Assembly (NCBI GenBank): GCA_004764695.1
Contig: SMSO01000032.1
Location: 5,798,483 to 5,862,482, forward strand
Origin: Schizochytrium sp. TIO01
Lineage: Eukaryota > Protista > Bigyra: Labyrinthulomycetes
DNA length: 64,000 bases
Direction of reading: 5' to 3'
Part shown: piece after piece, positions 4,105 to 55,533 of the stretch
Layout: every line of letters starts with the position of its first letter
How positions within the stretch are numbered: position 1 is the stretch's first letter
The notes under the pieces: model-generated
The model's database searches: none
The model's input: only the letters and a program-made list of their open reading frames with translations
What the model was told of the DNA's origin: nothing
Made by a program: the position numbers and the translations under genes

Positions 4105-4257
4105 AATTAAAGCTATACATTATCGAGAATAAAGAATAATTAATATAATATTGTATTATGAATGAGTATAGTAAGTCATTCGAGGAGAAACGGGGGTTGA
4201 TAGTTTCAATTACATTCTTCCTTTTAGGCATTACAGTGTGCATATTCACAAAATTAC

Positions 4258-22811: not shown

Positions 22812-23330
22812 TTACGGAAGTAACTGGCTTTTTATGTTGAGTATTTCGCATAGACAATCATAGTCGCTTATGAGAGTTTAGTGAAAAAAGCCGACACGGT
22901 GATACTGGCCGGTTTAATCGACTAGCACACTCTAGTCTCGATTATAAATAAAAAACTTGTAGTATTCGAAAAATCACAAGTAGCACTGGGTCCCTACCCT
23001 CGGGTGCCGCGAAATTGATGAATCTTTGATAGGAGTTAATATGGTGGGGGTAGAATAGACATGCAATTATCGATTTTGAAATCCCAAATATTCAAATTCT
23101 CAACCCAAAACTCCAACTCTCCCATAGTAAAGTGACTTTTCGCTGCAGAAAATCTAGATAGAGACCCATGCACTTTTCAAAAAGGTATCGCTTTTATCGC
23201 TTTTATCACTTTTATCGCTTTTATTAGGGGTCATCGTATAAGTTACAAATGATACTAGGAGGTATTAACAAGTTTGTAATAACCGGGGACGTTCATAGTC
23301 AACAAGAGTGCTATAATTATTACTATAAAA
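22812..23330 (+). repeat. dispersed structured repeat, copy A (4x ATCGCTTTT-type 9-mer at 23187-23222)
   Basis: Near-identical to copy B (direct) and copies C-E (inverted); boundaries approximate. Confidence 0.95.
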
Positions 23331-23409
23331 TAACTGACCTATTTTAAATGGTTTATTTTAGCCTTAAAATAATACACTCATTATCAATCACCAAACACCA
23401 AACTCCAAG

Positions 23410-24666
23410 ATGCAATGTATGAATGAATGCGAACTGAAGGCACGTGAATATTATCATTTCCGCGCCTTGAAGTATGCTATATGCGATGGATCAAACACGG
23501 CTCACATTCAGAAGTGCTTTCAATCACTCAAGGACTATCGCGCACGCATTGCACACACCAAGAGCATGGAGCTTCGTAAATTATTCGAGTGCTTACCTCA
23601 AGAAGTAAAGCGACAAAGATATAATTGTCGTATGATATTTGCTGAGTTTGATCGTCAGATTGATGGTGAAACATTTAGTCGCACCACGTTTTGTGTTGGT
23701 TTCGGTAGGGATTTTGACATGTTTACACCGATTACATTGGAGGCCTTTCATATTGGAATGCAGAGACTCCCGCGCGTTACCTCCAAATTTCATTTTACTA
23801 CCAATGAACCTATAGAATACGTAGCTATTTCATTTACCTGTATAAAAAACCACCACTCTCTTATACCCAACACATTACTTCCCTTCCTTTTTCCAGCGTT
23901 CGTTCCACTGATGGAAGTAGTGTCTTTCCCGGAAGATTATCAGACAATCGATAGGTACTCATCGTTTCAAGCATCAGAATTTTGCACACGAGCACACGCG
24001 GTTAATGCATTTGATTTATCTTTCTATAGCAACGAACTATACAAATGTACGTATGAATGGATAGAGAGGAAACTTACACACCCCGTCAGGATCCTTCGAT
24101 TATCCTTTTACAAAAAGGAATTATACGATAAAGACATAGATAGAATTATTGAACACTGTGTACACATCACAAAACCTCGATTTCTACGAATTAAGTTATC
24201 ACTATATAGGTATAAGAATGATACTGTGAATATCATACCTTTACTTCACGTTTTGATGCGAATCATCACAAACTGGCCATGTGACGTTCAACTAATAGTT
24301 GAATCGTGCTTTGATCTCGATTCAGTGTGGCTCGCTTCATGTATAAACTTAAGCCCACATTACCCTTTTCGAATCACGCTAAAGCATATTCACCCCACTT
24401 TGCTGCATAGCGAACAACACTACACACGTAAACTAGTTGTTGTCAACATGGCCAATGAATGTTTGAAGAGGGAAATTAAGCTACATTCCTTGCGACTACA
24501 TTGTGCGTCTAAGTTCTTCACATTTGGCCAGCTCCCATATGATGGACCTATGGAGACTATCACGCAATGCTTTAGCGCATGTGCGTACTATAACCGCCAC
24601 TTCCCAGAAGTGTCTGCGTATCTCGGAGGCGAGTTTCCTCAACGTCCAATTTCAATACAATCTTAA
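23410..24666 (+). CDS. hypothetical protein (cargo between repeats A and B)
   Basis: 418-aa ATG ORF with no recognisable motif. Confidence 0.7.
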   Translation: MQCMNECELKAREYYHFRALKYAICDGSNTAHIQKCFQSLKDYRARIAHTKSMELRKLFECLPQEVKRQRYNCRMIFAEFDRQIDGETFSRTTFCVGFGRDFDMFTPITLEAFHIGMQRLPRVTSKFHFTTNEPIEYVAISFTCIKNHHSLIPNTLLPFLFPAFVPLMEVVSFPEDYQTIDRYSSFQASEFCTRAHAVNAFDLSFYSNELYKCTYEWIERKLTHPVRILRLSFYKKELYDKDIDRIIEHCVHITKPRFLRIKLSLYRYKNDTVNIIPLLHVLMRIITNWPCDVQLIVESCFDLDSVWLASCINLSPHYPFRITLKHIHPTLLHSEQHYTRKLVVVNMANECLKREIKLHSLRLHCASKFFTFGQLPYDGPMETITQCFSACAYYNRHFPEVSAYLGGEFPQRPISIQS

Positions 24667-24749
24667 CCACTCAATTATGATATTTTAAAAAGTGATTCTT
24701 TAGAGTGCTATTAGCAAAGGGTTTATTTTTTTTACAAATTGTACCTTTA

Positions 24750-25290
24750 AATGTAATATTATATTTTTTTGTCTTTTGAAGAAACGCCATTCTCTTAATG
24801 ATAATCTCCACTATCGGAAGACGTTTTTAGTCGGAAGTATCTGGCTTTTTCCGTTTCAATACTCATTACATAAAACTCCGAGAAGACTTGCTCTGGAGAG
24901 TTAAAAGAAAAAGCCGACACGGTGATACTGGCCGGTTTAACCGACTAGCACACTCTAGTCTCGATTATAAATAAAAAACTTGTAGTATTCGAAAAATCAC
25001 AAGTAGCCCTGGGTCCCTACCCTCGGGTGCCGCGAAATTGATGAATCATTGATAGGAGTTTATATGGCGGGGGTAGAATAGACATGCAATTATCGATTTT
25101 GAAATCCCAAAAATTCAAATTCTCAACCCAAAACTCCAACTCCCCCATATTAAAGTGACTTTTCTCTGCAGAAAATCTAGATAGAGGCCCCTGTACCAAA
25201 AAATTAGGTATCGCTTTTATCGCTTTTATCGCTTTTATCGCTTTTATTAGGGGGGTATTGTCCAAGTCTGTTATTAAACGGAATTCCGAT
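24750..25290 (+). repeat. dispersed structured repeat, copy B (4x ATCGCTTTT at 25210-25245)
   Basis: Direct repeat of copy A; boundaries approximate. Confidence 0.95.
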
Positions 25291-25413
25291 AGGGGGTTTT
25301 GATTACACTCGAAGCAAGCAAAACCCGAACTACACACACTCGAGTGGCTTTTAGTGGCATCAAGTTATATACATTAGCTTTACGTGATAAGGAATATACT
25401 CTACTGACATAGC

Positions 25414-28400
25414 ATGAATAGCTTTCATTTCCCTACAGATGAGGTGTTCAACTCATCGAACATCCAATCAATTGAACCATCCAGTGATGGCACGCTACCC
25501 ACGTACTACTTCATTACGTTTCCGATGAAATGTTTTGTGCCGTGCCCGTCAACACTGCAAGAGCTCAAGGGCAATGGTGACTTGACCCAAAATGGCCTAG
25601 GTAACTGGGTTATGGCATTCTTCCTCATGTTCGTGGGGTTTGTGGAAAATGACTTTTATATACCTGAGAAAAAAAAGAACTGCGACAACAGCTCCAACGC
25701 AAACCCTCCTCCAGAGAACAACCTGGAGAATGAAGATGATGAGGACGTTGATAAGTCTTTTACAGCAACACTGGGTCGTTCTCGAGTTTACATGGAATAC
25801 ATTATCAATGATGCTTCTACGCCAGGAAACAACTTTGATGAGGTTTCTCTCATTGATTGCGTGGGTATCCGGTTTTGCTTTGCGTTTTACGGCGATGAGA
25901 CTGACCCGCGTAGAGCGTTGGAGAGACTTTTTCGCCATATAGCTGCTGAACGGACAAAGAGAAGAAGTCGTGGATCAAACCAAAAGCCTGCTGCTACCGC
26001 TCGCGCAGGAAGCAGCCACCCAAGTATCCTCCGCCATGACCAGGCTATCCAAGACTGGATGTCTTATGGTCAGACCGCCCTTGGGTATCTCGAATGTTTC
26101 AATCCGGATATATTAGAACAGGTTTTGCCCAACGGATGTCCTCTCTTTGGAAGTTTGGTAGATTTCGACCAAGTATTTGGCCACGATGCATCAATCGATA
26201 TCCTTGAGCGTCAGCCTGACGATGGTGTCAAAGTGGATGTGCGTCAGCGTTCAAACCCGATAAGCAACACCGGAACGCTTTGTTTTGGCATTCCTGCATT
26301 GGTGTACAGGTTCAATAGTCCGTGGGTGAACCGAGTGGCTATGCTTTATACAAACCTGCCACGTTCGCTTGCTTGGGAAAGCAAGCCACGAGAGATTCAG
26401 GTTGCCCAAGGAGCACTCATGTCCTCCTTCCGCTCATTGAATTCTCCCAATACAGAGACTTTCTTTAGAAACATGCTAATGATGCAGGAAAATAAGAATG
26501 ATCTACTAGACATTAGTAAAATGATGCAAAAACGCATCAGATCACTGAACTGTATTGAAGATAGCGCAGAACGCGTACGACTCAAGCAGCTCTATAGGCA
26601 TGATGCTGTGAAGCGTGCCCAGCGTATTTGGAATGAGAATGCCAATATCTCAAAGTCCATAAAGAAGATCGTCAAATGGACAGAAGAGAATGAGACGTGG
26701 ACCACACCACCGAAATATCAACGCATGGTTGATAATCATTCTCTGACCAGTTTTGGAAACATGGTTGCTCGTACTTTTTACTGTTACGAGTTTGACTTTG
26801 ATGTTCTTTCCAATCATGATATTTTGTTTTTTGTCATGGTTTGTGCACACAATGCTTATCAGTACAAACTCGAAAGTCTCCATCTCAATCCAATTTTACT
26901 CGGAGCGGGTACTATTGGAAAATCATTTATTTTGAACAAAATTAGTAAGATGTTCATTGACGGGACGGTAGAAGCCAACACCAACGTCACGGAGAAGGCA
27001 TTTGCGTTAGGAGAAAACAAGAATGATCACATTACATTGTATCACGAACTTCCCCAACGCATGCTTACCACAAAGGGTCGCGCTGGAGCGGGTGACACGG
27101 GAGATACCATTTTTAAGGACCTACTCACTAACGGTTTTGTCACAACTGTGCAACCGATGGTAACTGATGATAATCAACGCATTGAGCTGACATTCAAGTC
27201 CGAACGTGTAGGTTGTTTTATCTCAGCTACAAACGAAAGAGAAGACAACATGCATGAGTCATTACATTCTCGCTTTGTGTGTATTACAGTGAACGAGCGC
27301 CAGCGCCACGGTGTCACTATGTTGGATAAACAAATCTCATCGATTGAAATTGAAGAGGCCAGTAATTCGGCGCGAGCAGAGTTACACCGAGCCGGTTTGC
27401 TTCACCGTACCAGAGCGCGTCAAGCTATGGTTGCCATGGTAGAGCGTGCGATCGTCATTGGATTATTGGACGAACCTGATCTTTCTATTGCACAACACGG
27501 CGTGTCAAAGGCTGTTCAAGTTATCACAACAAAAGTTATGAAAGGCGCCGAGTACAATAATCGTGAAATCACAAACATTATTCTGTTTGCACGAACATTA
27601 ACAATTATGCACGCATGCGAACGCTTTGCCAATGACACAACATCACCTGGATACAACAAGCCCTTTTCCTACAAAAACCTCTTACCTATTCAGGATTATT
27701 TGGTCTGTACGGAGGAAATTGCAGTTTTTACATTATCATATTTTTTTGAACGCTTGCTTCAAGGAAACGCCATCAAAACAATGGTTTTACTGCTTAACAG
27801 CGTCAAGTCTGATCTTCAGCGCCACCCCGATAATAACAACCTTATGGTGAATGATACGTGCTACTATTATACCCCACCCAACTACAGGACTAGACACGCC
27901 ATCTACAGTAAGATGATGGCGACATCCTCTATCCTAGGTAGGTCCGGAGAAGAAAAGTTGAGTAAGGAAAATATCATGGTGTGCTTTAATAAATTGATGA
28001 AGATGTCACACAATGGTGAGTCCATTCTGAGGTACGAAGATCACAACGGAACCATCTATTTGAACAGGCATTATGTTGATGCTAACTTTGTTGTGGATAA
28101 AGAAACGGGGTTTTTCAAGAGTAAACGAAATTTCTTCGAGACCTTCAAATATGTTGTTAAACACGCATTCTCCCATAAGCATCAAAAGCCAACCAAGAAC
28201 GCCATCCTAGCTTTTGTGCGTGACCACGATTATCCATTTGTGTTGGAAACCATGGACCTAGGGGTGGACAAACTTGACAGTTATATAACCACCAAAAACT
28301 TTAGCTGTGAACTGGATGTAAACACAGAGGATCACTTTGTCAGAGGAGACCAAGTTTTTGTTAGTGGATCATCCTTTCAGTTTAGAGTGGACTTGCAAGA

Positions 28401-28668
28401 CCTCACCTATACAGAATACTACAACAGGCACCACGATCATGATCCGACCGACTATTCTCTGATTGATAGTCATGAAAAATTGTCAACCATGCACAACCCT
28501 AGTTCATGTGAACCTATTATTCCCACAACTCACGACGGAGATTACGCCAAATACCCAGAGTCTATGCTTTCTGCTTACAAACGGGTACACAAAAGAAAGT
28601 ATCAGGGTGATGAGGAACATAACAAAAGAGCCAGACTCGAAGATGATTCAGATGATGAACTTGAGTAA
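25414..28668 (+). CDS. large AAA+ ATPase, putative replicative helicase (MCM/SF3-like)
   Basis: Walker A GAGTIGKS, Walker B ITLYHE, sensor-1 FISATN, arginine finger SRF; 1084 aa. Confidence 0.75.
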   Translation: MNSFHFPTDEVFNSSNIQSIEPSSDGTLPTYYFITFPMKCFVPCPSTLQELKGNGDLTQNGLGNWVMAFFLMFVGFVENDFYIPEKKKNCDNSSNANPPPENNLENEDDEDVDKSFTATLGRSRVYMEYIINDASTPGNNFDEVSLIDCVGIRFCFAFYGDETDPRRALERLFRHIAAERTKRRSRGSNQKPAATARAGSSHPSILRHDQAIQDWMSYGQTALGYLECFNPDILEQVLPNGCPLFGSLVDFDQVFGHDASIDILERQPDDGVKVDVRQRSNPISNTGTLCFGIPALVYRFNSPWVNRVAMLYTNLPRSLAWESKPREIQVAQGALMSSFRSLNSPNTETFFRNMLMMQENKNDLLDISKMMQKRIRSLNCIEDSAERVRLKQLYRHDAVKRAQRIWNENANISKSIKKIVKWTEENETWTTPPKYQRMVDNHSLTSFGNMVARTFYCYEFDFDVLSNHDILFFVMVCAHNAYQYKLESLHLNPILLGAGTIGKSFILNKISKMFIDGTVEANTNVTEKAFALGENKNDHITLYHELPQRMLTTKGRAGAGDTGDTIFKDLLTNGFVTTVQPMVTDDNQRIELTFKSERVGCFISATNEREDNMHESLHSRFVCITVNERQRHGVTMLDKQISSIEIEEASNSARAELHRAGLLHRTRARQAMVAMVERAIVIGLLDEPDLSIAQHGVSKAVQVITTKVMKGAEYNNREITNIILFARTLTIMHACERFANDTTSPGYNKPFSYKNLLPIQDYLVCTEEIAVFTLSYFFERLLQGNAIKTMVLLLNSVKSDLQRHPDNNNLMVNDTCYYYTPPNYRTRHAIYSKMMATSSILGRSGEEKLSKENIMVCFNKLMKMSHNGESILRYEDHNGTIYLNRHYVDANFVVDKETGFFKSKRNFFETFKYVVKHAFSHKHQKPTKNAILAFVRDHDYPFVLETMDLGVDKLDSYITTKNFSCELDVNTEDHFVRGDQVFVSGSSFQFRVDLQDLTYTEYYNRHHDHDPTDYSLIDSHEKLSTMHNPSSCEPIIPTTHDGDYAKYPESMLSAYKRVHKRKYQGDEEHNKRARLEDDSDDELE

Positions 28669-28756
28669 GTGAATGAAGGGGACACTTGCTTTCTTATATG
28701 GAAATACAATCTTAGAAATATACCAATAAACAACATTCTACTTTCTCAATTTAAAC

Positions 28757-29467
28757 ATGTCAGTTAATTACGCGTCTCTACTCCGTACGAACCACCACGA
28801 GAAGTTACATACAGCAGGCCTCTCTCTTGGATTGGGATATGCCAAGCACTTTCATCAACCCACAAATGTGGTAGATAAGCGTAGCGTATACTTTTTGCGA
28901 GCAGACAACGCCCATATTTATTATATCGATCGGTCATTCACCTTTCCTATGGGGAAGAAGAAGGTGGAATGTAAAGTAAAGTGGCCCATCTTCAAGGTAG
29001 ATAAAATTGATCAATTGAATGATTCTGAACGGCATGTCCTGGAAACTCGCGTCAAGCGTATTGCTGAGAAGAGTCCTATTACTATCGACGAATTGTTTCG
29101 TAAGAATGATGTTTTCCTCTGTCTTTATCTCAAGGAGGAGCAGACTCTAAATCCCCCAACAGAAGTGGTAGCAAGTCGGGTCCAATCAAAGGACCCCAAC
29201 CCTTACATTAACTTTTATATTGTCAATAGTGCCGACTCACACGGGATTAATTCACTTACCTATGATTTGTGCTACACGTACTACCAGGAACTCAACGGAA
29301 AAATTCAAAAGCTAGAATCACAGACTAAGCTTAGTGATATAGACAAACTTGTACTATCCGTCAATAAGCTTGCTACAAGTGCATTCAACATCACCAAGAA
29401 TCATATGGTCCCGCCGCCCACTATCAATAATACGACTACTGATAACAATAATAGTCATGAGCCTACC

Positions 29468-29499
<32 letters not shown>

Positions 29500-29851
29500 A
29501 GAAAACTTTGTTCCTACCGCTTCTCCTATTGCTTCTGACATGATTTCAATTCCCAGTACTCAGACCTTTAGCCGTAAGGATCTTATCGGTATTCTAAGGG
29601 GAGCAACGGAACTAGGCGCTCTACCTCCGCCTCCCAAAGATTCGACGGTAGTTATGTATATCCCTAAGACTCTACCATTCATGCAGCCTCAGGATGAACA
29701 ATCTGTGCAATTGGCGCAAGCTTATGAAAATTGGACGCCACAGGTGCAGAATGAATCACACAATGCACCTGAGTCAGCAAACCCCAAACTCTCTGTAGAG
29801 ACAGCACCACCTCCTGTGCCGAGGGTGCAGGTCATCCCAGCAGGTCTGTAA
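28757..29851 (+). CDS. hypothetical protein with polyQ and Pro-rich tail
   Basis: 364-aa ORF; class-L-like CTTATATGGAAA at 28693-28704. Confidence 0.7.
29468..29500 (+). repeat. (CAG)9(CAA)2 microsatellite encoding Q11
   Basis: Read directly. Confidence 0.95.
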
Positions 29852-29852
29852 T

Positions 29853-30428
29853 ATGGCAACGACTACTGCAGAGATCTTATTTTACAAAGGTCAACTTGTC
29901 CAAATTGGACAAGGTTTTTATGAATACCCTGTTATAACAACATCAAAGGCTTCTTATAAAACAATAGAGGGCACTATTCGATGGGCAAGGAACATTGTAG
30001 CCTACAGACTTCAACGGGTTGGCATTGCTTGTCCCGAGGTTGTCAATGCAAGTACCTTCGAAGAATTGAGTTCGGCTCTTTTGAAAATATCCACTCCACA
30101 GATTAAGTTTCGATTTTGGTTCTCCAAGTGTCAAAAGGAGTTCTCTTCAGAAACTATATTCATTGGCTCATTTTTCAAGAATAGAGTTATTGAAATCTAT
30201 TTCACACCCATTATATCCGACAAAGACACAATCGAAGGCATCAGGAAAATACTTATACCACATCAAATCGACAAGGCAAAGAGTTTCTTAGAAGAGAACA
30301 ACATCAAGTTTGAAATTAATGATGACTACAAAGTACCTGAGACTGCATCAACACTCAAGAGACTTCAGGCGTGGATGGACGGTTTGTCCAATGATGGTTT
30401 GTGGTTTGCTATTGCGTACCAAAGCTAG
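29853..30428 (+). CDS. hypothetical protein
   Basis: 191-aa ATG ORF. Confidence 0.65.
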   Translation: MATTTAEILFYKGQLVQIGQGFYEYPVITTSKASYKTIEGTIRWARNIVAYRLQRVGIACPEVVNASTFEELSSALLKISTPQIKFRFWFSKCQKEFSSETIFIGSFFKNRVIEIYFTPIISDKDTIEGIRKILIPHQIDKAKSFLEENNIKFEINDDYKVPETASTLKRLQAWMDGLSNDGLWFAIAYQS

Positions 30429-30488
30429 CAAATGCATATATGACAAATTTAAGACAAGAGATGAAATTAAAAGTGAAAAAGAATTTCG

Positions 30489-32348: not shown

Positions 32349-32354
32349 ATTCGG

Positions 32355-33335: not shown

Positions 33336-33383
33336 GATGAGATTGATTATTTACTCTTGTCAACTTGACCGTGTAGACTCGCC

Positions 33384-33432
33384 TTCGAGTCAGCAAATCC
33401 CTAATGTCGCGTTCGAGTCAGCAAATCCCTAA
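33384..33432 (+). promoter_or_regulatory. tandem duplicate of TTCGAGTCAGCAAATCCCTAA (class-E motif x2)
   Basis: Exact 21-mer at 33384-33404 and 33412-33432, in the divergent intergenic region upstream of the RNAP subunit. Confidence 0.7.
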
Positions 33433-33605
33433 CGCAGCTTTCGGGTAATGCTATTCAGTAGGCACCTGTTTGCTTCTCGCTTTCAGTTTTGGTTTTGCTT
33501 GCTACTTTTGGCTGCGAGTTTGGTTTTCTGAGTTACCTTAATGATATATTAGGCCATTTAATACCACCTTAATAAGTGCCCTATCAATGTTTAAAGCTGT
33601 GCAAG

Positions 33606-35225: not shown

Positions 35226-35268
35226 GAATGTATAGTATTTAGTATTTTATTCATTGATTGATATCCTT

Positions 35269-36753: not shown

Positions 36754-36815
36754 GGTGTTCTATTCAAAGGGAGCGTCCGACCAAATCGGAGTTAGGGATT
36801 TGCTGCTCAACAAAA

Positions 36816-37574
36816 TCAGAGAAATTTATCATTGCCATCAAATGACATATAAATCTGCGTAAGTCGATAGGCACAGTAGTACATGAATAGCAAATCAATA
36901 GGAGGCCGAGTAAACTCTCCGTAAATAAAATGTAATATGACAAAACTTCCAACGAGGAACATTCGAGAAACTTGCAATGCTACTCGCTTACTCTTTACCC
37001 AGACAATTAATCCAGTTGTTTTGGGGTAGCACTCTGGGCCGTATGTCTGAACTGTTTGTGACAAATTTACATGCAAATGTTGCAACCAGATGTCAATATC
37101 AAACAGATCATCTATGATTTGAATAATTGACGGTAGTAAAGCAGTAGCATGTTTAAACTGTACAATTAAAAATAAAAACTGAAGGTAAGTGGCTGCATCA
37201 GATAGGCCCCCATGATGAAATGTGTGTGAAACCGGATCGAAACGAGTTATAATTTTCAAGTAGATCATGATAAAGATAAGTCGGTTAATCTCAGTCACAT
37301 GAACAAATGAATGAAACAGATAGATCGTAGACCGAACCATTGGATTTATCGAGAGGAGGCACATGACGATCGAGGCCGCAAAGAAACTCAAAATGTCATG
37401 TTGAGACTTCGCACTTGATTCTCTCGCATAGTAGTGTAGTCTAATGTCAATGTCTAAAAGCAGCTTCAAAACCTGCTCCTGTTTTGTAATGAGGTAGCGG
37501 ATAAAGTAGTAGACGCCAAAATAAATGAGGCTTACCCACACAATTTCATAAAGCGCGTCAAGTAACAAGAGCAT
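36816..37574 (-). CDS. multi-pass membrane protein, weak TLC (LAG1/CLN8)-like
   Basis: Several TMs; IIQIIDDLFDI and SRMFL resemble TLC LLHDxSD and FxxxR motifs. Confidence 0.4.
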   Translation of the reverse strand: MLLLLDALYEIVWVSLIYFGVYYFIRYLITKQEQVLKLLLDIDIRLHYYARESSAKSQHDILSFFAASIVMCLLSINPMVRSTIYLFHSFVHVTEINRLIFIMIYLKIITRFDPVSHTFHHGGLSDAATYLQFLFLIVQFKHATALLPSIIQIIDDLFDIDIWLQHLHVNLSQTVQTYGPECYPKTTGLIVWVKSKRVALQVSRMFLVGSFVILHFIYGEFTRPPIDLLFMYYCAYRLTQIYMSFDGNDKFL

Positions 37575-37655
37575 CGTGGACAATTAATCAGTCGATTTTT
37601 TTTCATCGTATAGAGTATACTTATTAATATTATGTTTATGATGATTACTTTTTTA

Positions 37656-38708
37656 TTAGCCCTGTCCAAGAAGCACTGTGAACTTCTGCCCAGGCTTGCC
37701 ATACTGCATGCTGGTACCAACGGTCCTAGCACGAAGACTGTCTTGCAGCTCAGTGATACCAACATAAAGTTCACGAATGTACTTGTCCAACAAACGACCC
37801 CTCTCCAAATTATCAATAGCTTGTCTTGCATTATCAATAAACGGTGAACGACCCGGAGAGTTCTTGATGAGAATCGATTCAATAACAGCCTCAATTTCAT
37901 TTTCGGGTTTATTTTGCATCTCTTGTGCACCCAAAATCATGGGAAGAGCAATAAGCTTAATTAGAGACTCGGAAATCCTACTCAAACGGTCATTAGTCAT
38001 ACCTTCTGGAAGGGGAGTTTCTTTACCTTGACTAATAAGGTGCTTGACATGCGGCGTGAAGCTGTACTTGTTCCGGGAATGCCGCAAAGGCTCGATCATA
38101 AGGGGAACCTTATTATCAGAGTAACCATACCTGTTCTTCATCTTTTCCAGATCACTAGAACTTGGTACTGTCCAGAGAACAATATCACCAGGGACAAAGT
38201 TCACGCTACAATTATTGAAAACGTCGATTGTTCCAGCAACACGCACAGTAATTTGCTCCTTTTGAGAAGATTCATCCTCGGGGTTAGGGTTGGTTCCACC
38301 GAGAGAAACACCAATATACCTAATACAATTCGTCAGTAGCTCATTAACCTCTGCCTCGGTCAGTGTTCGATTGAAATACCATGGCTTCAACTTGGCGTAA
38401 GCACCATTCAAATTACTTACTACAGGAATAGCGTTTTTCATAATTGTACCACGCTGCATCATGCCTCTTCCAATCTGGAACACCAAATCGCCTCGGTCAA
38501 TTCGACTCGCGGCATTATCAAGTGTCGCCGTGTGTTTATAGAAGGCATACTCAGGGTTAACATTTTCAATATTATCACGGACACGACGAGCCTCGCGTTC
38601 CATCATAGCATAGCGTGCCACTAGCTCTTCCTTATCATGGCGGGCCTGGATGACCACTGTCGCCTGAGCCGCGTCCTCACCAAACAAGTGCTTGAAGTTA
38701 GTCGCCAT
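37656..38708 (-). CDS. putative capsid triplex subunit (beta-tulip)
   Basis: ITVRVAGTIDVFN...FVPGDIVLW and RTVGTSMQYGKPGQKFTVLL are beta-tulip-like, interrupted by a helical insert as in triplex proteins. Confidence 0.65.
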   Translation of the reverse strand: MATNFKHLFGEDAAQATVVIQARHDKEELVARYAMMEREARRVRDNIENVNPEYAFYKHTATLDNAASRIDRGDLVFQIGRGMMQRGTIMKNAIPVVSNLNGAYAKLKPWYFNRTLTEAEVNELLTNCIRYIGVSLGGTNPNPEDESSQKEQITVRVAGTIDVFNNCSVNFVPGDIVLWTVPSSSDLEKMKNRYGYSDNKVPLMIEPLRHSRNKYSFTPHVKHLISQGKETPLPEGMTNDRLSRISESLIKLIALPMILGAQEMQNKPENEIEAVIESILIKNSPGRSPFIDNARQAIDNLERGRLLDKYIRELYVGITELQDSLRARTVGTSMQYGKPGQKFTVLLGQG

Positions 38709-38754
38709 GTTGATAAAGTTGTCAAGTTATTTTCAAGTGTTTCTAGAAGCCTAA

Positions 38755-38766
38755 TTTTAATATATG
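38755..38766 (-). promoter_or_regulatory. class-L motif CATATATTAAAA
   Basis: 46 nt upstream of ATG 38708; identical to 18369-18380. Confidence 0.65.
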
Positions 38767-38798
38767 GAAAAATGAGTTCTTATTTTTGTTTCAAGTAT

Positions 38799-39404
38799 CT
38801 AACTATCCTTTTTCAAAACGGGAAGAATTGACTGAAGGTGATCCATGAAGTTCTGATGAGGAATATACATTGCATTATCATATGACGGGACAATCGGACG
38901 GAGAGTGAATTCTACGTCGAAGCGCAGCGGAACTTCCCGATCAAACGACCCCGCGAAACACATGCCTGAATTTAGAAAGTTCGTGACCCGTCGGTTATAC
39001 ATCCTGCACATAAATCGGTAAGCACTAGACGAATAGTCTTCAATAGGTACCTCCACGCCGTGGTCTGAACGAAAGCTCTTTGATCCGGGAAACCAACTAG
39101 CTGGATACATAGAATCCTGTAGAACAACATTATACTTGGGCTGCATACACAAATAATTATCAGACGCAATCATATGCTTAAGAAGACTTGGGGCCTGCCA
39201 CTTTGGATCTTCAAAGAAAGTATTTCTGGAAATCGAGGCACCATATAGCATAGGACTAGCATCAACCATAGGCTCGCGAGTACCCGGGAAAATCACCGGT
39301 GGAATCGTGTTGCTTCCTTCGTGAAGAAGGTTATACTCATAATCCATTGAATCGTGCTTCAACGCATGTGAAAAGCTATGATGCTGACCCATTGAGAAAA
39401 TCAT
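38799..39404 (-). CDS. hypothetical protein
   Basis: About 200-aa ORF, first ATG 39404. Confidence 0.65.
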   Translation of the reverse strand: MIFSMGQHHSFSHALKHDSMDYEYNLLHEGSNTIPPVIFPGTREPMVDASPMLYGASISRNTFFEDPKWQAPSLLKHMIASDNYLCMQPKYNVVLQDSMYPASWFPGSKSFRSDHGVEVPIEDYSSSAYRFMCRMYNRRVTNFLNSGMCFAGSFDREVPLRFDVEFTLRPIVPSYDNAMYIPHQNFMDHLQSILPVLKKDS

Positions 39405-39425
39405 AGGTCTCTCCAAGTCGATAAC

Positions 39426-39833
39426 CTAACGCCATTCATTATTATCACCCACCAAGTCATCAATAGGAGTAGTCATAGATTGAATATGAGGCATGATAAG
39501 AGATCCAGCAATGCTACTTCCATCATTCGTGCGCGGCGTTCGGAAATTCTTGACGGTAAGCCCGTGCAGTGCGAATTTCAGAGAGTAGTCGTCCCCAATA
39601 GGCATCTGATAGTACTTGATAACATTAACAATACGATCTTGCACGGATGAATAATTATCTAATAATGAAGAAAAAGGAATTGCAACAGACTTTCCAGCCA
39701 GGGTTGCTGAATTGATATTACTCACAGTGCCAGAGTTAATAGTAGCAGACGATTGAATACGGAGAGGGGCGTTCGTCAAGGAGAGTTCCTCAGCCTGCTC
39801 TCGTTTCTTACTCAGACCGTGCTGATATACCAT
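39426..39833 (-). CDS. hypothetical protein
   Basis: 135-aa ATG ORF. Confidence 0.6.
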   Translation of the reverse strand: MVYQHGLSKKREQAEELSLTNAPLRIQSSATINSGTVSNINSATLAGKSVAIPFSSLLDNYSSVQDRIVNVIKYYQMPIGDDYSLKFALHGLTVKNFRTPRTNDGSSIAGSLIMPHIQSMTTPIDDLVGDNNEWR

Positions 39834-39876
39834 TGACCAACTACTATCACATATAATAATTATTTCAACTTATACA

Positions 39877-40251
39877 CTATAGATTCTTTAAAATTTCTAT
39901 TCTCATCATTTCACTAGTATCTTCTATAAATTGATCACGGCTAAATGTTTCTTCCAAAGCCACTAAATCAAAGTCGCCATTTGAAAGTTTTTTGATCAAA
40001 CTCGTATTGACCCTTGAGGCTAAGTAGTTATGAATAGGCTGCAAAAGCCAGTGGATACTTTCGACAGTATCATGGCCATCGGCTATACTATGCATTGTGG
40101 CCGAGCAATTCTTATGCGTAAACGCTATGGATACAGCTTCATCAATAGACGTGCGTTGAAATACTTTCAACAGTTTCTTACGTATAAACGGAGCATCACA
40201 GGCTGCTCTGACACTCTCTTCAATGACGCTCTCGATTTTATGATTTACCAT
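39877..40251 (-). CDS. hypothetical protein
   Basis: ATG 40251 preceded by CAGCAAACCCCTAT; the track's N-terminal extension is repeat-derived. Confidence 0.6.
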   Translation of the reverse strand: MVNHKIESVIEESVRAACDAPFIRKKLLKVFQRTSIDEAVSIAFTHKNCSATMHSIADGHDTVESIHWLLQPIHNYLASRVNTSLIKKLSNGDFDLVALEETFSRDQFIEDTSEMMRIEILKNL

Positions 40252-40299
40252 GGTGTTGATAGGGGTTTGCTGACTTAACTTGCTCAGAATATTGATATC

Positions 40300-40611
40300 C
40301 CGGAATTCCGTCAAATAAATGACTTGGGAAATACCCCCCGAATAAAAGCGATAAAAGCGATAAAAGCGATAAAAGCGATACCTAATTTTTTTGTGCAAGG
40401 GTCACTATCTAGATTTTCTGCGGAGAAAAGTCACTTTAATATGGGAGAGTTGGAGTTTTGGGTTGAGAATTTGAATTTTTGGGATTTCAAAATCAATAAT
40501 CGCATGTATATTCTACCCCCACCATATTAACTCCTATCAAGGAATCCTCAATTTCGCGGTACCCGAGGGTAGGGACCCGGGGCTACTTGTGATTTTCAAA
40601 CTACTACAAGA
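40300..40611 (-). repeat. dispersed structured repeat, copy C (inverted; 4x AAAAGCGAT at 40344-40379)
   Basis: Reverse complement of A/B core; shares the CGGAATTCCG flank with copy B. Confidence 0.95.
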
Positions 40612-40743
40612 ATTAGTTAATCAAAACAATAAGAATGATAACATATAAGGAAGAGAGCGGAAAGTCGCTCAGTTCATGTCTCAGCAAAACCGAAACTCGA
40701 CTCAACTAAAAAAGAATAAGTAAAACAAGAGAAGAACATCACC

Positions 40744-41625
40744 ATGCAAGGAGAACGATTGTCAGAGAAGGAGATTTCCATAGTAAGGTTTCTTTACAAA
40801 AGACGCAAGGCCCTATTCACCGGTGAACAATCGCCCAATAAGCGCTTGTGCAGGGACTTTGAGCCAGAAGACGATGAACCGGAAGCAATGGAATCTCCTC
40901 CTCAAGAGGAGGTTGCTAAAAAGGCAATTGTGAAATTCAAATCCCCACCACCTCATATCGTGTACGAGGTCGATCAGCAATCAATTGATTTGCGCAGCCT
41001 CGAACTCGTACGGGATTCGATCATCTGTTGTAACTACACAAAATACCCTGCAAAACCTCAATTTGTCTCAACATCTGCGAATCTAGGCATATCTTATTCC
41101 TATGGTGACATGCGTACACTATATGTGTTGATTCAAAAACCTGCCGATGAAAAACACATCACCAAGTTTCACTTCCGCGTGAATTTTAGTGGAAAATACC
41201 CAGATACACGTCAATACTTCAGCTCACACGACGCTATCACTCTTAACCGCCACGATAAAGTATTCCATGTAGCAGCAGACTCTCACGTTACGGATACGAA
41301 GCCCAGTGTACTCAAACGCGAAGGTTCCAAGGCGAGTAAGGTGTACGATTCGAAATACTTTTTCATCTTTGCACTTCGAATGTGGCCAAAGAAGTACTAT
41401 CTCTTCACCTCAAAAGACCCAGGAATGACAAACGTGTATAACTTTCATATCGAGTACTCTGTCAAGGACTCGTGTGAGCGTCAGGTAGTTGAAATCCCAG
41501 AGACTCACAACTCATTTACAATGTTTTCCAAGCCACATGGTCGCAAGTCTGCTGTTCATGAAAATCGCCGTGCAAAATTTATCAAGATGGCAGAACTCTA
41601 TAAAACCATCGAATCAATGCAATAA
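40744..41625 (+). CDS. hypothetical protein, possible Ig-fold DNA-binding domain
   Basis: 293 aa, beta-rich, ending SFTMFSKP plus basic tail; the fold is speculative. Confidence 0.55.
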   Translation: MQGERLSEKEISIVRFLYKRRKALFTGEQSPNKRLCRDFEPEDDEPEAMESPPQEEVAKKAIVKFKSPPPHIVYEVDQQSIDLRSLELVRDSIICCNYTKYPAKPQFVSTSANLGISYSYGDMRTLYVLIQKPADEKHITKFHFRVNFSGKYPDTRQYFSSHDAITLNRHDKVFHVAADSHVTDTKPSVLKREGSKASKVYDSKYFFIFALRMWPKKYYLFTSKDPGMTNVYNFHIEYSVKDSCERQVVEIPETHNSFTMFSKPHGRKSAVHENRRAKFIKMAELYKTIESMQ

Positions 41626-41666
41626 ATTGCACCTAAACAATAACAATATCCCAAACTTCGAATTGA

Positions 41667-42856
41667 TTAGTTAAGCGTACTATGAAAGTAGTTCGTCATC
41701 GTATTTTCAGGGGCGGAGTCAAAATGATTACCACATACTTGTGAAATCAAGGGAAGGTGTTTAATCCTATACATTCGACAGTGAATGGGATGCCCATTCC
41801 CGGCGCGCTTGCTGTAGGTAGGAGGTTTCTCACCATACTCTTCCTCATACGCCTTGCACAACGCCTTCCCGAAACTCGTCTTTTCTCCATCTTTTAACTT
41901 GCGCCCAAGAATCTTCTCAACTTCACTAATGTGGTCAATGATTTCATCATTAGTGTCTTGAATGGCCAATTGTTGGTTGGTAGTGTTGATATTGAATTGA
42001 TTAATAACCAGAGCTCGGAGCTCAATCGAGTCACGCTCGTCAACGGCACTCGAAGCTCGAGAGTACATGTCCATCATAAACGCTACATGCTTTTGTTGAC
42101 CCTCTTGCAAAAGAAGTTGTGTCTCCACCTCGTACCGATCAAGCTCTAGATTAAGTCGACGCTTCTTCACGATGCGAAGATCGTCATCCTCATCCTTCAC
42201 TTGACCAAGTACCTTCTCCCCGATCTGGACCTGGCCACCATCATGGATTATCTGCACGGCCTGGCCCATCGCGATAAAACAATCAACATACTTCCCTTGA
42301 CGCTTGCTATGCATTTTCATCAGAAGTCGAAGTGCAAACAAGGGGGTTACGAAGTAAAACTTCGAAGAAGGGCCGCAGTCGGGACGGAACATAACAGGAC
42401 CTTCCTCCAGGCAATCATAATCAAACACAATAGGTTTTTCAAGGTCTTCACGTGGAGTTACAAGGTTATCATTCCCGATAACCTTTCTATACTCGTCGAA
42501 TGCCCCCCGAAGACTTCAGATTTGGGGAGGGAGGCCCAATCTTGACCCTCTTGGCCCATCTCTTTGAGAATACGAGAGAGAAAGTTAGCTTGGTCAATCT
42601 TGTTTTGATACTTGCGACCGGCAACAGCAGCGACCAGCATGGCGGGGATGCAGAATGCACCCTTGGTCTTCGAGTCGGTGCTTTTGCGAAGGATGTCTAG
42701 GACTACGGGTACGATATCGCCAAAGTTCTCGAGCTTGGTGCTCACTTGTGAGACTTGTTGCGTAGAAAGAGCACCAAAGCGACTCGTGATGTCAAGAATT
42801 TGATCATCGTTGATCGTCTTGGTAGAGAGGTTGTCTTGGTTGTTGGTGGTGGGCAT
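41667..42856 (-). pseudogene. antirepressor/KilA-Bro-type DNA-binding family gene, copy 1, frameshifted in a G6 tract
   Basis: Track ORFs 42458-42856 and 41667-42428 join into one 396-aa ORF if the C6 run at 42503-42508 is C7, as in the paralog (43744-43750). Confidence 0.75.
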
Positions 42857-43123
42857 CTTGGTTGACTTGAATGACTTGGCTTGGGCGGTGGCGTCTCGTG
42901 CTTAAATGCTTACCTAGCTAGAAGATCTTGAGTTGCGGGTTTGCTTTCGCCACCACATCAAAAAATGTTACTTTTGTTCGTAATATAAGTTACATAGTAG
43001 AATCGCTAATAGTGGAAAAGTGCTAATTGATTCATAAACATGTTTATATATAGTCAAAACTATAGTATTTATAAATTGTTTATTGTTACTTTATAATAAT
43101 TTACATAGTCATAACTATAATAG

Positions 43124-44074
43124 TTATACTGTAACATAATTGACTTCAACTTTATAACGTTTGCAAGTATCAAAGCATTCACCTGCTGGCTTTTTTTCAC
43201 CAAACAATACAAGCCGACGACGTTTATTGGTTGCGCAACCATATGCAAGTACTTGTCCCAATCCATGCATCCATTGAGAAACGGGTTTAACCTCGATAAC
43301 TTCATCGTGGGTCTCCACGTCCGCGAACCCACACTTGTTCTTTGATTCGATCTTACCATGTTTTTGTAGAGCAAATAAGTCGCGAACTCTATTGTGAGTT
43401 GTTTCTATGGGTATGAGCCTTTGTGGCATTTGGAGGATAGCGTATTCAGCTTGACAAATTGCAAGTTGCATTGTGTTTTCACTAGAATGGTCTATGAGAA
43501 CTTTTGATATTTCTAAAAGAATGGTAATAATAATATCTTGACGCCTACTCTGCATTTTCATCAGAAGTTGAAGTGCAAACAGGGGGGTTACGAAGTAAAA
43601 CTTCGAATTATGTCCACAGTCGGGACGGAACATAACAGGACCTTCCTCCAGACAATCATAATCAAATACAAGAGGTTTTTCAAGATCGACACTTGTCTTG
43701 GTGACTCCGACAGTAGTGACCATCTTTCTATACTCGTCGAATGCCCCCCCGAAGACTTCAGATTTGGGGAGGGAGGCCCAATCTTGACCCTCTTGGCCCA
43801 TCTCTTTGAGAATACGAGAGACGAAATTGGTTTGATCAAACCTGCTAGTATACTTGCGACCGGCAACGCCGGCGACCAACATCGCAGGGATGTGGAATGC
43901 GTCCTTTGTTTCAGGGTTGGTGCTCTTACGTAGAATGTCTAGGACGGCTGGTACGATATCGCCGAATTTCTCGAGCTTGGTGCTCACTTGTGAGACTTGA
44001 TGCGTAGAAAGAGCACTAAAGCGGCTGGTGATGTCAAGAATTTGATCATCGTTGATCGTCTTGGTTTCGGGCAT
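43124..44074 (-). CDS. same N-terminal domain fused to a PD-(D/E)XK nuclease, copy 2
   Basis: N-terminal ~175 aa near-identical to copy 1; C-terminal GFADVETHDEVIEVK...WMHGLGQVLAY; ATG 44074 with AGCAAACCCGTAA upstream. Confidence 0.8.
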   Translation of the reverse strand: MPETKTINDDQILDITSRFSALSTHQVSQVSTKLEKFGDIVPAVLDILRKSTNPETKDAFHIPAMLVAGVAGRKYTSRFDQTNFVSRILKEMGQEGQDWASLPKSEVFGGAFDEYRKMVTTVGVTKTSVDLEKPLVFDYDCLEEGPVMFRPDCGHNSKFYFVTPLFALQLLMKMQSRRQDIIITILLEISKVLIDHSSENTMQLAICQAEYAILQMPQRLIPIETTHNRVRDLFALQKHGKIESKNKCGFADVETHDEVIEVKPVSQWMHGLGQVLAYGCATNKRRRLVLFGEKKPAGECFDTCKRYKVEVNYVTV

Positions 44075-44289
44075 TGTCTTGACTGGTGACGTCTCGTGTT
44101 TGAAATTACGGGTTTGCTTTCGCGTCCGTATCAAAAAGTACTCGTCACGGAATTTATATAGTAAAACACTAATAGTAAAAACGGACTAATTGAATCATGA
44201 ACCTAATTATATATAGTTGAAACTATAGTATGTGCAAATTGTTAAATTGTTACTTTATACTATTTTATATAGGCATAATTATAATAGTT

Positions 44290-44520
44290 ATATTGTAGCG
44301 ACCAACATCGCAGGGATGCAGAAGGTGCCCTTGGTCTTCGAGTCAGTGTAGCGACCGGTGGTGTCAAGAATTCGATCATCGTTGATAGTCTTGGTAGAGA
44401 GGTTGTCCTGGTTGTTGGTGGTGGGCATCTTGGTTGGCTTGGGTGGCGACGTCTCGTGCTTGAATGCTTACCTAGCGAGGAGATTTCGAGTTACAGGTTT
44501 GTTTTCGCCACCACAAAAAA
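44290..44520 (-). pseudogene. deleted remnant of the same family, copy 3
   Basis: Retains promoter and the MPTTNNQDNLSTKT start plus a patch encoding KTKGTFCIPAMLV, with internal deletions. Confidence 0.75.
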
Positions 44521-44701
44521 ATATTCGTAATGAAAGTTATATAGTTAAATTATTAATATTGAAATCTAACTAATTGATTCGCAAACCGATTCTTATCTAG
44601 TCAAACCTAAAGTATTTATAAATTGTTATATTGTTACTTTATATAAATTTATATAGCCATAATTATATTAATTATGGCGTTTGCAAGTATCAAAACAAGA
44701 G

Positions 44702-45220
44702 CTATTGAATTGTATTTCTACTTCTTTTACTAACAAATGCATATGGGGCAAATGTTAAGGAAATTCCCATCATGCGATCAAATGTGTCCAGTTTACACTT
44801 ATCATCCTTAGCCGACACGTAACCTTTTTTGAGTTTGTAATCGTTAATTGACTTAAACGAGTCGTGATATTTCATCATCTTCTTGTACATATCATTATCT
44901 CTAACATTGCCTTTTGGTGTCCCTTCAATGTTAGACCCTCTCAAAAGATGCATAAAGTCATAATTTAAATCACACCAATATTGCCTTCTATATAACTTCA
45001 TCTTACTTAGTCGCTTGATCTCATGTAGAAATAGAATGTCTTTCTCTAAATGATCTTCTTGGCCTTTGTATATTTCGAGTAGCCTCTCTCGTGGTACATT
45101 ATCAATGAATCTAAGTATAAAATTTATAAATCCCTGATACATTCGGTTCGAAACGAGCATGTCGAATTCCTCAGCATTACTCCGATCTACTAGGTAGTTC
45201 ATGATCCCACGAGGCATCAT
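44702..45220 (-). CDS. hypothetical protein
   Basis: 172-aa ATG ORF. Confidence 0.6.
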   Translation of the reverse strand: MMPRGIMNYLVDRSNAEEFDMLVSNRMYQGFINFILRFIDNVPRERLLEIYKGQEDHLEKDILFLHEIKRLSKMKLYRRQYWCDLNYDFMHLLRGSNIEGTPKGNVRDNDMYKKMMKYHDSFKSINDYKLKKGYVSAKDDKCKLDTFDRMMGISLTFAPYAFVSKRSRNTIQ

Positions 45221-45316
45221 ATTTTGCTTTGGAAACTCCTCTCGGTGTATGCATTGTTCCCTTTGTTCATTGTATCTTAATTGTAATATAGTATATATTG
45301 TATATCTATAACTTCT

Positions 45317-45960
45317 ACAATACCCCCCTAATAAAAGCGATAAAAGTGATAAAAGCGATAAAAGCGATACCTATTTTTTTGTGCAAGGGTCGCTATCTAG
45401 ATTTTCTGCAGATGAAAGTCACTTTACTATGGGAGAGTTGGAGTTTTGGGTTGAGAATTTGAATATTTGGGATTTCAAAATCGATAATAACATGTATATT
45501 CTACCCCCACCATATTAACTCCTATCAAGGAATCCTCAATTTCGCGGCACCCCAGGGTAGGGACCCAGGGCTACTTGTGATTTTTCAAATACTACAAGTT
45601 TTTGAATTCTAATCGAGACAAGAGTATGTTAGTCGGTTAAACCAGCCAGTGTACCCGTATCAGCTTTTTCTTTAAACTACACAGAGCAAGTCTTCTCGGA
45701 GTTCTATGTAATGCGTAATTATTTTCTAACTACCGGAGTTCCGTGTAAATACTTGAGTCGGTTAGTCGGTTAAACCAGCCAGTGTACCCGTGTCGGCTTT
45801 TTCTTTAAACTACCCAGAGCAAGTCTTCTCGAAGTTTTACGCAATGTGTATTGACACAAAAAGCCAGACACTTCCACCAAAACTCTCCCGGTAGCGAAGA
45901 TCAAGAGTAAGAGAAAGGCGTTTATTCAAAAGACAACTTAATAATATTAACACTTTTTAC
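45317..45960 (-). repeat. dispersed structured repeat, copy D (inverted; longest; internal ~90-bp duplication 45628-45720/45760-45850)
   Basis: 9-mers at 45333-45368; tail matches copy B left flank. Confidence 0.95.
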
Positions 45961-45961
45961 A

Positions 45962-46333
45962 GCAATAATTATAGCACTCTCGTTGACTATGAACGTCCAC
46001 ATATTATTACAAACTTGTTAGTATATCATCGTAGTGTCTGGAACTTAGACAATACCCCCTTAATAAAAGCGATAAAAGTGATAAAAGCGATAAAAGCGAT
46101 ACCTTTTTGAAAAGTACATGGGTCTCTATCTAGATTTTCTGCAGAGAAAAGTCACTTTAATATGGGGGAGTTGGAGTTTTGGGTTGAGAATTTGAATTTT
46201 TGGGATTTTGAAATCGATAATCGCATGTCTATTCTACCCCCACCATATTAACTCCTATCAAAGAATCCTCAAAATGGCGACACCCGAGGGTAGGGACCCA
46301 GGGCTACTTGTGATTTTCCAAGTACTACAAGAA
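45962..46333 (-). repeat. dispersed structured repeat, copy E (inverted, tandem with D)
   Basis: 9-mers at 46065-46100; head matches copy A right flank. Confidence 0.95.
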
Positions 46334-55486: not shown

Positions 55487-55533
55487 TTCATAAATATTAT
55501 ACTATATGTTGAAGTATACTCGATGATAGTAAA

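What the first reader, a model, noticed from the sequence alone, without database searches (positions are those of the whole stretch)
22812..46333. Five-copy structured repeat family with iterons, arranged as two inverted clusters around the replication/transcription block
Seen: copies A and B (+) and C, D and E (-) share a ~280-bp near-identical core. The core has four tandem 9-mers (ATCGCTTTT) next to a G5-6 run, several palindromes or hairpins (ATCTAGAT, near-palindromic TTTTC(TC)TGCAGAAAA, ACTTGT...ACAAGT, and GACTAG-N6-CTAGTC in A and B) and a GC-rich CCCTACCCTCGGG block. Copy B ends about 120 bp before the helicase ATG. B and C face each other across ~15 kb holding the helicase, RNAP, SSB and triplex genes. 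Known: baculovirus hrs and herpesvirus ori/a-sequences are dispersed, palindrome- or iteron-rich repeats used as origins, enhancers and recombination or packaging sites. Inference: this is a mirusvirus origin/enhancer family that could also invert the 25.3-40.3 kb segment, giving herpes-like genome isomers.
Basis: partly seen in the sequence, partly recalled or inferred. Interest (0 to 1): 0.85.

Follow-up and report, generated by a model that had tools for sequence, protein, structure and literature searches.

The report
Dispersed recombining repeats in a mirusvirus
A herpes-related virus of a culturable marine protist carries a roughly 290-base repeat scattered between its genes; the copies swap sequence and bracket a gene whose copy number differs between strains, and they likely serve as protein-docking sites for starting DNA copying or boosting genes, but there is no sign that they flip the segment between them.

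Summary
The five copies are real: 88.6-93.2% identical over 281 columns, all intergenic, and recovered in contigs of four separate public studies. The window is a strain of AurliV-2, the chromosomally integrated mirusvirus of Aurantiochytrium limacinum. The 'five copies around a replication block' picture comes from the window's limits. The published AurliV-2 table holds a sixth copy about 120 kb away, and contigs show further flanks (roughly 9-12 copies by summed depth, a rough figure). The 25.3-40.3 kb segment has the same orientation in the published nanopore assembly, so isomers are unsupported. Recombination is supported: copies are mosaics (32 of 55 site pairs incompatible), and the gene between A and B has one copy here but three diverged tandem paralogues in the published strain. 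The fixed word is the heptamer ATC(G/A)CTT at a 9-bp period. Whole-core folding is unremarkable, there are no target duplications, and skew shows no single origin. Best reading: a polar, direct-repeat analogue of baculovirus hrs (function inferred, 0.5). This scan noted hr-like arrays in other mirusviruses before (unchecked); my searches found none in print. Its value is a culturable host in which to test it.

The parts
22956..23243 (+). Copy A core (5' hairpin arms to 3' terminal motif); 9-mer array 23186-23224, G4 run 23227-23230
22875..22955 (+). Upstream arm shared by A, B and D (holds GACTAG-N6-CTAGTC in A and B)
23244..23330 (+). Downstream arm shared by A and E, ending in a TATA-like word 80-86 bp before the cassette gene's ATG
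   Evidence: (I11, I13)
23410..24666 (+). 418-aa orphan gene between direct copies A and B; one copy here, three diverged tandem paralogues in published AurliV-2; diverged version in run X8
24754..24978 (+). Long upstream arm of B, shared with D and with the partial copy D'
24979..25267 (+). Copy B core; 9-mer array 25209-25247, G6 run 25250-25255; homology with C runs on to 25288
25414..28668 (+). 1084-aa conserved mirusvirus protein with MCM-like AAA+ fold (predicted replicative helicase), first gene downstream of B
40322..40610 (-). Copy C core; array 40342-40380; points at the start of the 124-aa ORF (40251)
45311..45598 (-). Copy D core; array 45331-45369; upstream arm to 45717; points at the start of the 172-aa ORF (45220)
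45751..45949 (-). D': partial extra copy of the upstream arm only (133-bp tandem offset from D's arm)
   Evidence: (D13)
45955..46042 (-). Downstream arm of E, homologous to A's; joins D' directly with no cassette gene
46043..46331 (-). Copy E core; array 46063-46101. E-D'-D is an inverted, gene-less counterpart of A-gene-B

Best explanation
This is a genome-wide family of roughly 290-bp intergenic repeats of an AurliV-2-type mirusvirus whose copies exchange sequence and bracket a gene cassette present once here and three times in another strain, and which likely act as protein-docking platforms for starting DNA replication and boosting nearby genes, as baculovirus hr regions do. Shown: dispersal, fixed unit ends, patchwork ancestry of the copies, cassette number difference between strains. 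Inferred: a viral or host protein would bind the four head-to-tail ATC(G/A)CTT heptamers cooperatively; the polar platform would recruit the viral MCM-like helicase or the transcription machinery towards the downstream gene; many such sites would give multi-origin or recombination-primed replication; unequal crossing-over between direct copies would expand and contract the cassette; and conversion between all copies, inverted ones included, would keep the family near 90% identical.
For: All 5 copies are intergenic in an 84% coding window. Further copies: one in the published AurliV-2 table at about 266.3-266.5 kb; at least four long downstream flanks in contigs match none of A-E, compared by eye; summed contig depth inside the core is about 9-12 times the flank in X1 and 5-10 times in X2 (the tool warns this is no copy number, and X1 may be the window's source). 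The heptamer and 9-bp period persist while the 2-nt spacer changes (TT to AA) in the 266-kb copy and in a 3'-only copy, which fits a bound word, not a fresh slippage tract. The 5' hairpin arms are invariant while its centre varies. 4 of 4 window copies that have an ORF downstream point at its start 85-180 bp away, and the 266-kb copy does too at about 650 bp. Mosaicism: 11 collapsed informative sites against about 2 expected on a star tree; 32 of 55 pairs incompatible; best single tree explains 4 of 11; neighbour-compatibility p about 0.01. Cassette: three paralogues at about 1.97-1.99 kb spacing in the published strain, gaps 692, 722, 604 and 840 bp against 691 and 747 here; X8 has 101 differences in 786 nt of this gene against 35 in 5778 nt of the helicase block. 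Genes between baculovirus hrs are likewise the most variable (PMC4758234 passages).
Against: No function was tested. Fourfold-site skew shows no replication breakpoint once gene strand is controlled (permutation p 0.18 for GC, 0.32 for AT, 56 genes); the raw cumulative minimum at 42.5 kb is not at a copy. The core is 60% A+T, no richer than the window, and lacks the repeated 28-30 bp palindrome that defines hrs. ATCTAGAT is lost in the 266-kb copy. Genes next to the repeats are not highly expressed in the published table (9-74 read units in the richer medium for the four with values, against 1188 for a gene with no repeat), although AurliV-2 is largely quiet there. The co-orientation count is small (chance 1 in 16 for four) and large gaps are mostly promoter-side anyway (12 of 13). 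The core is absent from 22 of 22 loci around distant helicase relatives (24-29% identity in all but one short match) and from IMG/VR and JGI pattern scans, so there is no deep conservation to show constraint. Repeat cores in the published strain's cassette gaps are inferred from gap size and one matching flank, not read.
Confidence: 0.5

Rival explanations
1. A non-autonomous mobile element, for example an IS607-type miniature moved by a serine transposase, that spread through the viral genome and only secondarily recombines.
For: Sharp shared ends with unique flanks. No target duplication, as in IS607. Four 9-bp direct repeats 20-58 bp from the 3' terminal motif resemble the four 9-bp motifs 20-60 bp from the IS1535 left end (PMC6188088 passages). 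AurliV-2 holds a recombinase/transposase-related plus TnpB-domain locus at 48-50 kb.
Against: No GG at the 5' boundary in 5 of 5 copies; the 9-mers are head-to-tail at 9 bp, not helically phased; sequence beyond the G-run is conserved (TA, six free bases, then AAGT in B-E and the 266-kb copy; AAGT at the matching place in A), whereas IS607 targets share only GG; no terminal inverted repeats or duplications for a MITE; orthologous gaps keep their size between strains (C 492/492, D-E 1308/1301), so no empty sites were seen.
Confidence: 0.15
2. A neutral by-product: one promoter-side stretch was copied by segmental duplications and is kept alike by gene conversion, with no function of its own.
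For: A-gene-B and E-D'-D are inverted counterparts sharing flanking arms. A second paralogue cluster lies at 41.7-44.7 kb. No distant conservation.
Against: Copies with unrelated flanks stop at the same two ends; the heptamer and period persist while spacers change; a gene-dense genome keeps about ten copies.
Confidence: 0.12
3. A maintenance or partition site: the array would tether viral episomes or mark chromatin during persistent infection (EBV FR, KSHV TR or parS-like; these comparisons are recalled).
For: These viruses persist as episomes or integrants by an unknown mechanism (10.64898/2026.07.28.741200 section 7). The sister episome AurliV-1 encodes a ParA-domain protein (Collier preprint passage). 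Direct-repeat arrays are typical of such sites (recalled).
Against: Many dispersed four-unit arrays inside a longer conserved unit fit poorly with a single large tethering array; I did not check AurliV-2 for ParA; no core word was found in the AurliV-1 ORF table, which covers coding sequence only.
Confidence: 0.1
4. Herpes-like junction repeats that flip the 25.3-40.3 kb segment into isomers or mark cleavage and packaging sites.
For: B and C are inverted, 91% alike over 310 bp and share a downstream arm. Mosaic sites link inverted copies, so they do meet.
Against: Same order and strand for all ORFs between B and C in the published nanopore assembly. No strand-changing joint among 8 joints listed for four runs, though contigs break in the cores and cannot phase. 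Copies are short and dispersed, with other pairs elsewhere. 'Integrase' has 0 hits and 'recombinase' only the transposon locus in the AurliV-2 table.
Confidence: 0.08
5. A structured non-coding RNA gene family.
For: Contigs from two runs guessed to be RNA cover parts of some copies.
Against: Folding z-scores +0.24 (DNA), -0.38 and +0.92 (RNA, both strands); 0 Rfam matches; only the 5' hairpin reaches z -1.7 to -2.7, one of 13 windows per copy. Cover can be read-through or DNA.
Confidence: 0.05

Closest known systems
Baculovirus homologous regions (hrs; AcMNPV, AgMNPV) - PMC6669502 and PMC4758234, passages read
   Same: Several dispersed intergenic copies (3-17 per genome in baculoviruses); lineage-specific sequence; genes between copies are the most variable, attributed to homologous recombination; nuclear large dsDNA virus.
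   Different: hrs are arrays of 28-30 bp imperfect palindromes that vary in unit number and are AT-rich. This is one polar 290-bp unit with a fixed four-heptamer direct array, average A+T, and shown function is lacking.
AurliV-2, integrated mirusvirus of Aurantiochytrium limacinum (PMC12606086, Supplementary Data 2)
   Same: Collinear ORFs of the same lengths (MCP 905 aa, helicase 1084 aa) with few differences, for example 2 of 133 residues in one ORF by eye; same gaps at C and D-E; a copy of the repeat at 266 kb.
   Different: One cassette gene against three; two ORFs that are whole there are split here. The paper does not describe the repeat in the passages, sections and supplement searches I made.
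IS607-family transposon ends (IS1535 left end; PMC6188088, passages read)
   Same: Four 9-bp direct motifs about 20-60 bp from an end; no terminal inverted repeats or target duplication; G-run near one end.
   Different: No GG at the other end; 9-bp period, not helically phased; conserved bases beyond the G-run; no empty sites seen.
Herpesvirus inverted repeats and a-sequence (recalled)
   Same: Inverted copies bracket a unique segment in a duplodnavirus; G/C runs beside A/T runs.
   Different: Short, many and dispersed; no second orientation seen in the one independent long-read assembly.

Membership tests
Mirusviricota, AurliV-2 type (Soporavirales) | HK97-type MCP, triplex, split RNAP largest subunit, collinearity with AurliV-2 | tested here: met
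Baculovirus hr | Several dispersed intergenic copies per genome | tested here: met
Baculovirus hr | Built from repeated 28-30 bp imperfect palindromes | tested here: not met
   One 27-bp imperfect hairpin per unit; the repeated word is a direct heptamer
Baculovirus hr | High A+T content | tested here: not met
   Core 60% A+T, same as window
Baculovirus hr | Flanked genes vary by recombination | tested here: met
   One against three cassette genes; diverged allele in X8; mosaic copies
Baculovirus hr | Infection-dependent plasmid replication; transactivator-bound enhancer | not testable with these tools
   Needs bench assays; skew test gave no single origin
Herpesvirus isomer-forming repeats | Both orientations of the bracketed segment exist | tested here: inconclusive
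   Same orientation in one nanopore consensus; contigs cannot phase; no raw long reads offered
Herpesvirus isomer-forming repeats | Few long repeats at termini and segment junctions (recalled) | tested here: not met
   About ten short dispersed copies
Herpesvirus a-sequence | pac1/pac2 motifs at virion DNA ends (recalled) | not tested
   No terminal reads available
IS607-family end | Four helically phased 9-bp direct motifs 20-60 bp from the end | tested here: inconclusive
   Four 9-bp units at that distance, but 9-bp period
IS607-family end | GG at both termini, no other target conservation | tested here: not met
IS607-family end | Ends shared with a cognate transposase-bearing element | not testable with these tools
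   The ends of the 48-50 kb locus are not in the ORF table
MITE | Terminal inverted repeats and target-site duplication | tested here: not met
   Only chance 3-mers in 5 of 5 copies

The most novel reading that the evidence does not exclude
The repeats are the long-missing cis elements of persistent mirusviruses: polar heptamer arrays that load a viral MCM-like helicase at about ten origins, and at the same time drive a gene accordion that diversifies an orphan gene family and could loop the subtelomeric provirus out as a circle.
Probability: 0.2. Interest if true: 0.8.

Novelty: new variant of a known kind. Interest (0 to 1): 0.48.

Why it matters
How mirusvirus genomes replicate and persist in thraustochytrids is stated as unclear in a 2026 preprint, and my searches found no described mirusvirus origin or enhancer. 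Other hr-like mirusvirus arrays noted by this scan are in viruses those notes describe as uncultured or environmental. This one sits in a published virus of a culturable host, so replication, enhancer and binding assays can be done directly. It also marks where the viral genome gains and loses genes between strains.

Tried and rejected
Whole-genome search: no genome is held for this window. IMG/VR scan for the 9-mer array gave 12 loci; none matches the rest of the core, and those whose frames I read encode Ser-Asp-Lys or Leu-Leu-Ser repeats in unrelated viruses. A 17-mer scan gave 21 loci with no match beyond 20 bp. Hairpin pattern in IMG/VR: 0. Gapped pattern in JGI metagenomes: 0. Helicase alone and MCP alignment found no IMG/VR loci. 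Single-sequence MCP model was unusable (pLDDT 31). GATA-factor reading of the 9-mer (recalled HGATAR consensus) was dropped because spacer changes in two outside copies break GATAA but keep the heptamer. Joints 23330>24856 and 24947>24860 are the E-D'-D cluster laid onto A and B, not deletions. No RNA holder listed; runs guessed as RNA leave parts of the B gap uncovered, which I do not use. Covariation was not run: five copies at 90% identity that recombine give no independent changes. The bacterial promoter scan is irrelevant here and was at chance level. The cassette protein has no homologue among 735 candidates, no Pfam or PHROG family and only weak F-box-family leads under 0.9.
Full report
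Observation. Repeat search, tandem search, alignment and self-BLAST confirm five copies at the stated places. The shared core runs from a 5' hairpin (invariant arms, variable centre) to a four-unit 9-mer array, a G4-6 run and a short terminal motif. Identity is 88.6-93.2% over 281 columns. The array pattern has 15 matches, all within the five copies, against none in 100 shuffles. Flanking arms are shared in combinations: upstream by A, B, D and a partial copy D'; downstream by A with E and by B with C. E-D'-D is therefore an inverted counterpart of A-gene-B that lacks the gene. All copies are intergenic.

Identity of the virus. The 905-aa ORF scores 0.95 to HK97-type capsid clusters and is 41% identical to a Hondaea protein. 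The RNAP ORF holds only the C-terminal Rpb1 domain, as described for Soporavirales. Supplementary Data 2 of PMC12606086 lists collinear ORFs of the same lengths and nearly the same sequence, so the window is a strain of AurliV-2, the chromosomal integrant of A. limacinum. The gene after B folds with pLDDT 77 on a 20-sequence alignment, and its best PDB matches are MCM helicases (E 4.5e-6, TM-score by query only about 0.2, so the match covers the ATPase part).

Not an artefact, and not five copies. Twenty of 24 listed runs hold part of the region, 14 of them at least half of its words. I laid seven. In X2, X4, X8 and X10 (four studies) contigs cover all 30 bins of 22.4-42.4 kb and break inside each core. 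Loose ends show flanks that match none of A-E by eye, a copy holding only the 3' 90 bp (seen in 5 of 7 runs), another convergent pair in X2 and another direct pair in X1. Both loose-end tables were cut (40 and 17 rows not shown). Summed depth at variable interior sites is 3782-4782 against 405 in X1, and 657-1279 against about 130 in X2. The tool states this is no copy number, so 'about ten' is rough. The published table independently contains part of a copy at 266.3-266.5 kb, about 120 kb from the cluster.

Inversion. In the published nanopore assembly all 11 ORFs between B and C keep the order and strand seen here, with coordinate offsets of 103,078-103,089 across the segment and beyond C, and a C gap of 492 bp in both. 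None of the 8 joints listed changes strand, but contigs cannot phase across the cores and no raw long reads were offered. Isomers are unsupported, not excluded.

Recombination that is visible. After collapsing adjacent sites, 11 informative positions remain, against about 2 expected from chance on a star tree. Of 55 pairs, 32 are incompatible, the best tree explains 4 of 11, and neighbouring sites are more compatible than shuffled ones (p about 0.01). Copies of opposite orientation share patches. Between strains, the A-B interval has one 418-aa gene here and three paralogues there, with conserved ends and divergent middles, spaced about 1.97-1.99 kb, with gaps of repeat size. The first bases of the third paralogue's long frame match A's downstream arm. 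I infer, but did not read, cores in those gaps. X8 carries a version with 101 differences in 786 nt plus two replaced stretches, while its helicase block has 35 in 5778 nt.

What is conserved. The 266-kb copy and the 3'-only copy change the two spacer bases but keep ATCGCTT and the 9-bp period; the 266-kb copy loses ATCTAGAT. The whole core folds no better than shuffles, has no Rfam match and no target duplication. Four of four window copies with a downstream ORF point at its start, as does the 266-kb copy, but the count is small. A separate promoter-like word sits closer to many ATGs. Fourfold-site skew gives no breakpoint (p 0.18 and 0.32), which argues against one dominant bidirectional origin and is neutral for many weak origins. 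No relative outside this virus shares the core; the 22 loci examined are too distant to test conservation.

Mechanism and comparison. The best reading is an hr-like docking platform: dispersed, intergenic, lineage-specific, recombining, with variable genes between copies, as described for baculovirus hrs. It is not a member of that family, since the palindrome array and A+T richness tests fail. Binding, origin and enhancer steps are all inferred. The strongest rival is a non-autonomous IS607-type element, because four 9-bp repeats near a G-run recall IS1535 and AurliV-2 holds a transposase-related locus; terminal GG and target tests fail and no empty site was seen.

Literature. Searches. 'AurliV' occurs in 2 papers of the library. 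What I saw: PMC12606086 passages, sections 6 and 9 (first part), parts 3, 13, 14, 15 and 26 of 30 of supplementary file 4, and six term searches of its supplements; 10.64898/2026.07.28.741200 passages and section 7; passages only of PMC12768974, PMC10132985, PMC10827195, 10.1101/2023.06.15.545109, PMC6669502, PMC4758234 and PMC6188088. None of these describes this repeat: 'inverted' has 0 hits in five mirusvirus main texts and in the PMC12606086 supplements. Subscription versions and bioRxiv supplements could not be seen and might mention it. Seven earlier notes of this scan report hr-like, mostly palindromic arrays in other mirusviruses (unchecked); none matches this sequence.

Verdict. Real, genome-wide, recombining repeat family; origin or enhancer role plausible and untested; isomer claim unsupported. 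New variant of a known kind, interest 0.48, mainly because the host can be cultured.

Noticed in passing
window, 17 sites, e.g. 6571+, 13749+, 22738-, 36803-, 40270-: A separate promoter-like word, about GCAAAYCCSTAA: 13 of 17 matches lie within 150 bp upstream of a co-oriented ATG against 6.6% background. The motif was picked by eye from the same upstream sequences, so the p-value is post hoc. It resembles the plant telo-box (recalled). It suggests the genes have their own core promoters apart from the repeat.
   Followed up: partly
window 38799-39833 and 41667-42856: Two genes that are single ORFs (344 aa and 418 aa) in published AurliV-2 are each split into two ORFs here; decay or assembly error.
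   Followed up: partly
window 41667-44675: Second paralogue cluster with a shared N-terminal part and different C-terminal parts, plus a partial third copy at 44297-44675; the interval is about 300 bp shorter in the published strain.
   Followed up: partly
window 53720-57315: Tandem pair of sulfatase genes, followed by weak sulfotransferase-like genes and an astacin gene.
   Followed up: no
window 24594-24635: A 42-bp match to another contig at depth about 351 in X1 and 93 in X2, against 405 and 130 for the virus. If that contig is host DNA, the virus is near host depth, as for an integrant. Its identity is unknown.
   Followed up: no
AurliV-1 table of PMC12606086, ORF 420 at 285729-285959: A different tandem repeat of about 114 bp in the sister episome; AurliV-1 may have its own repeat family.
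   Followed up: no
window 33379-33443: A 28-bp tandem repeat in a divergent gap that duplicates the promoter-like word.
   Followed up: no
L038 3127-3838 and L039 1090-1801: A 143-bp inverted repeat pair right after the helicase match in two distant loci, possibly a small inserted element.
   Followed up: no
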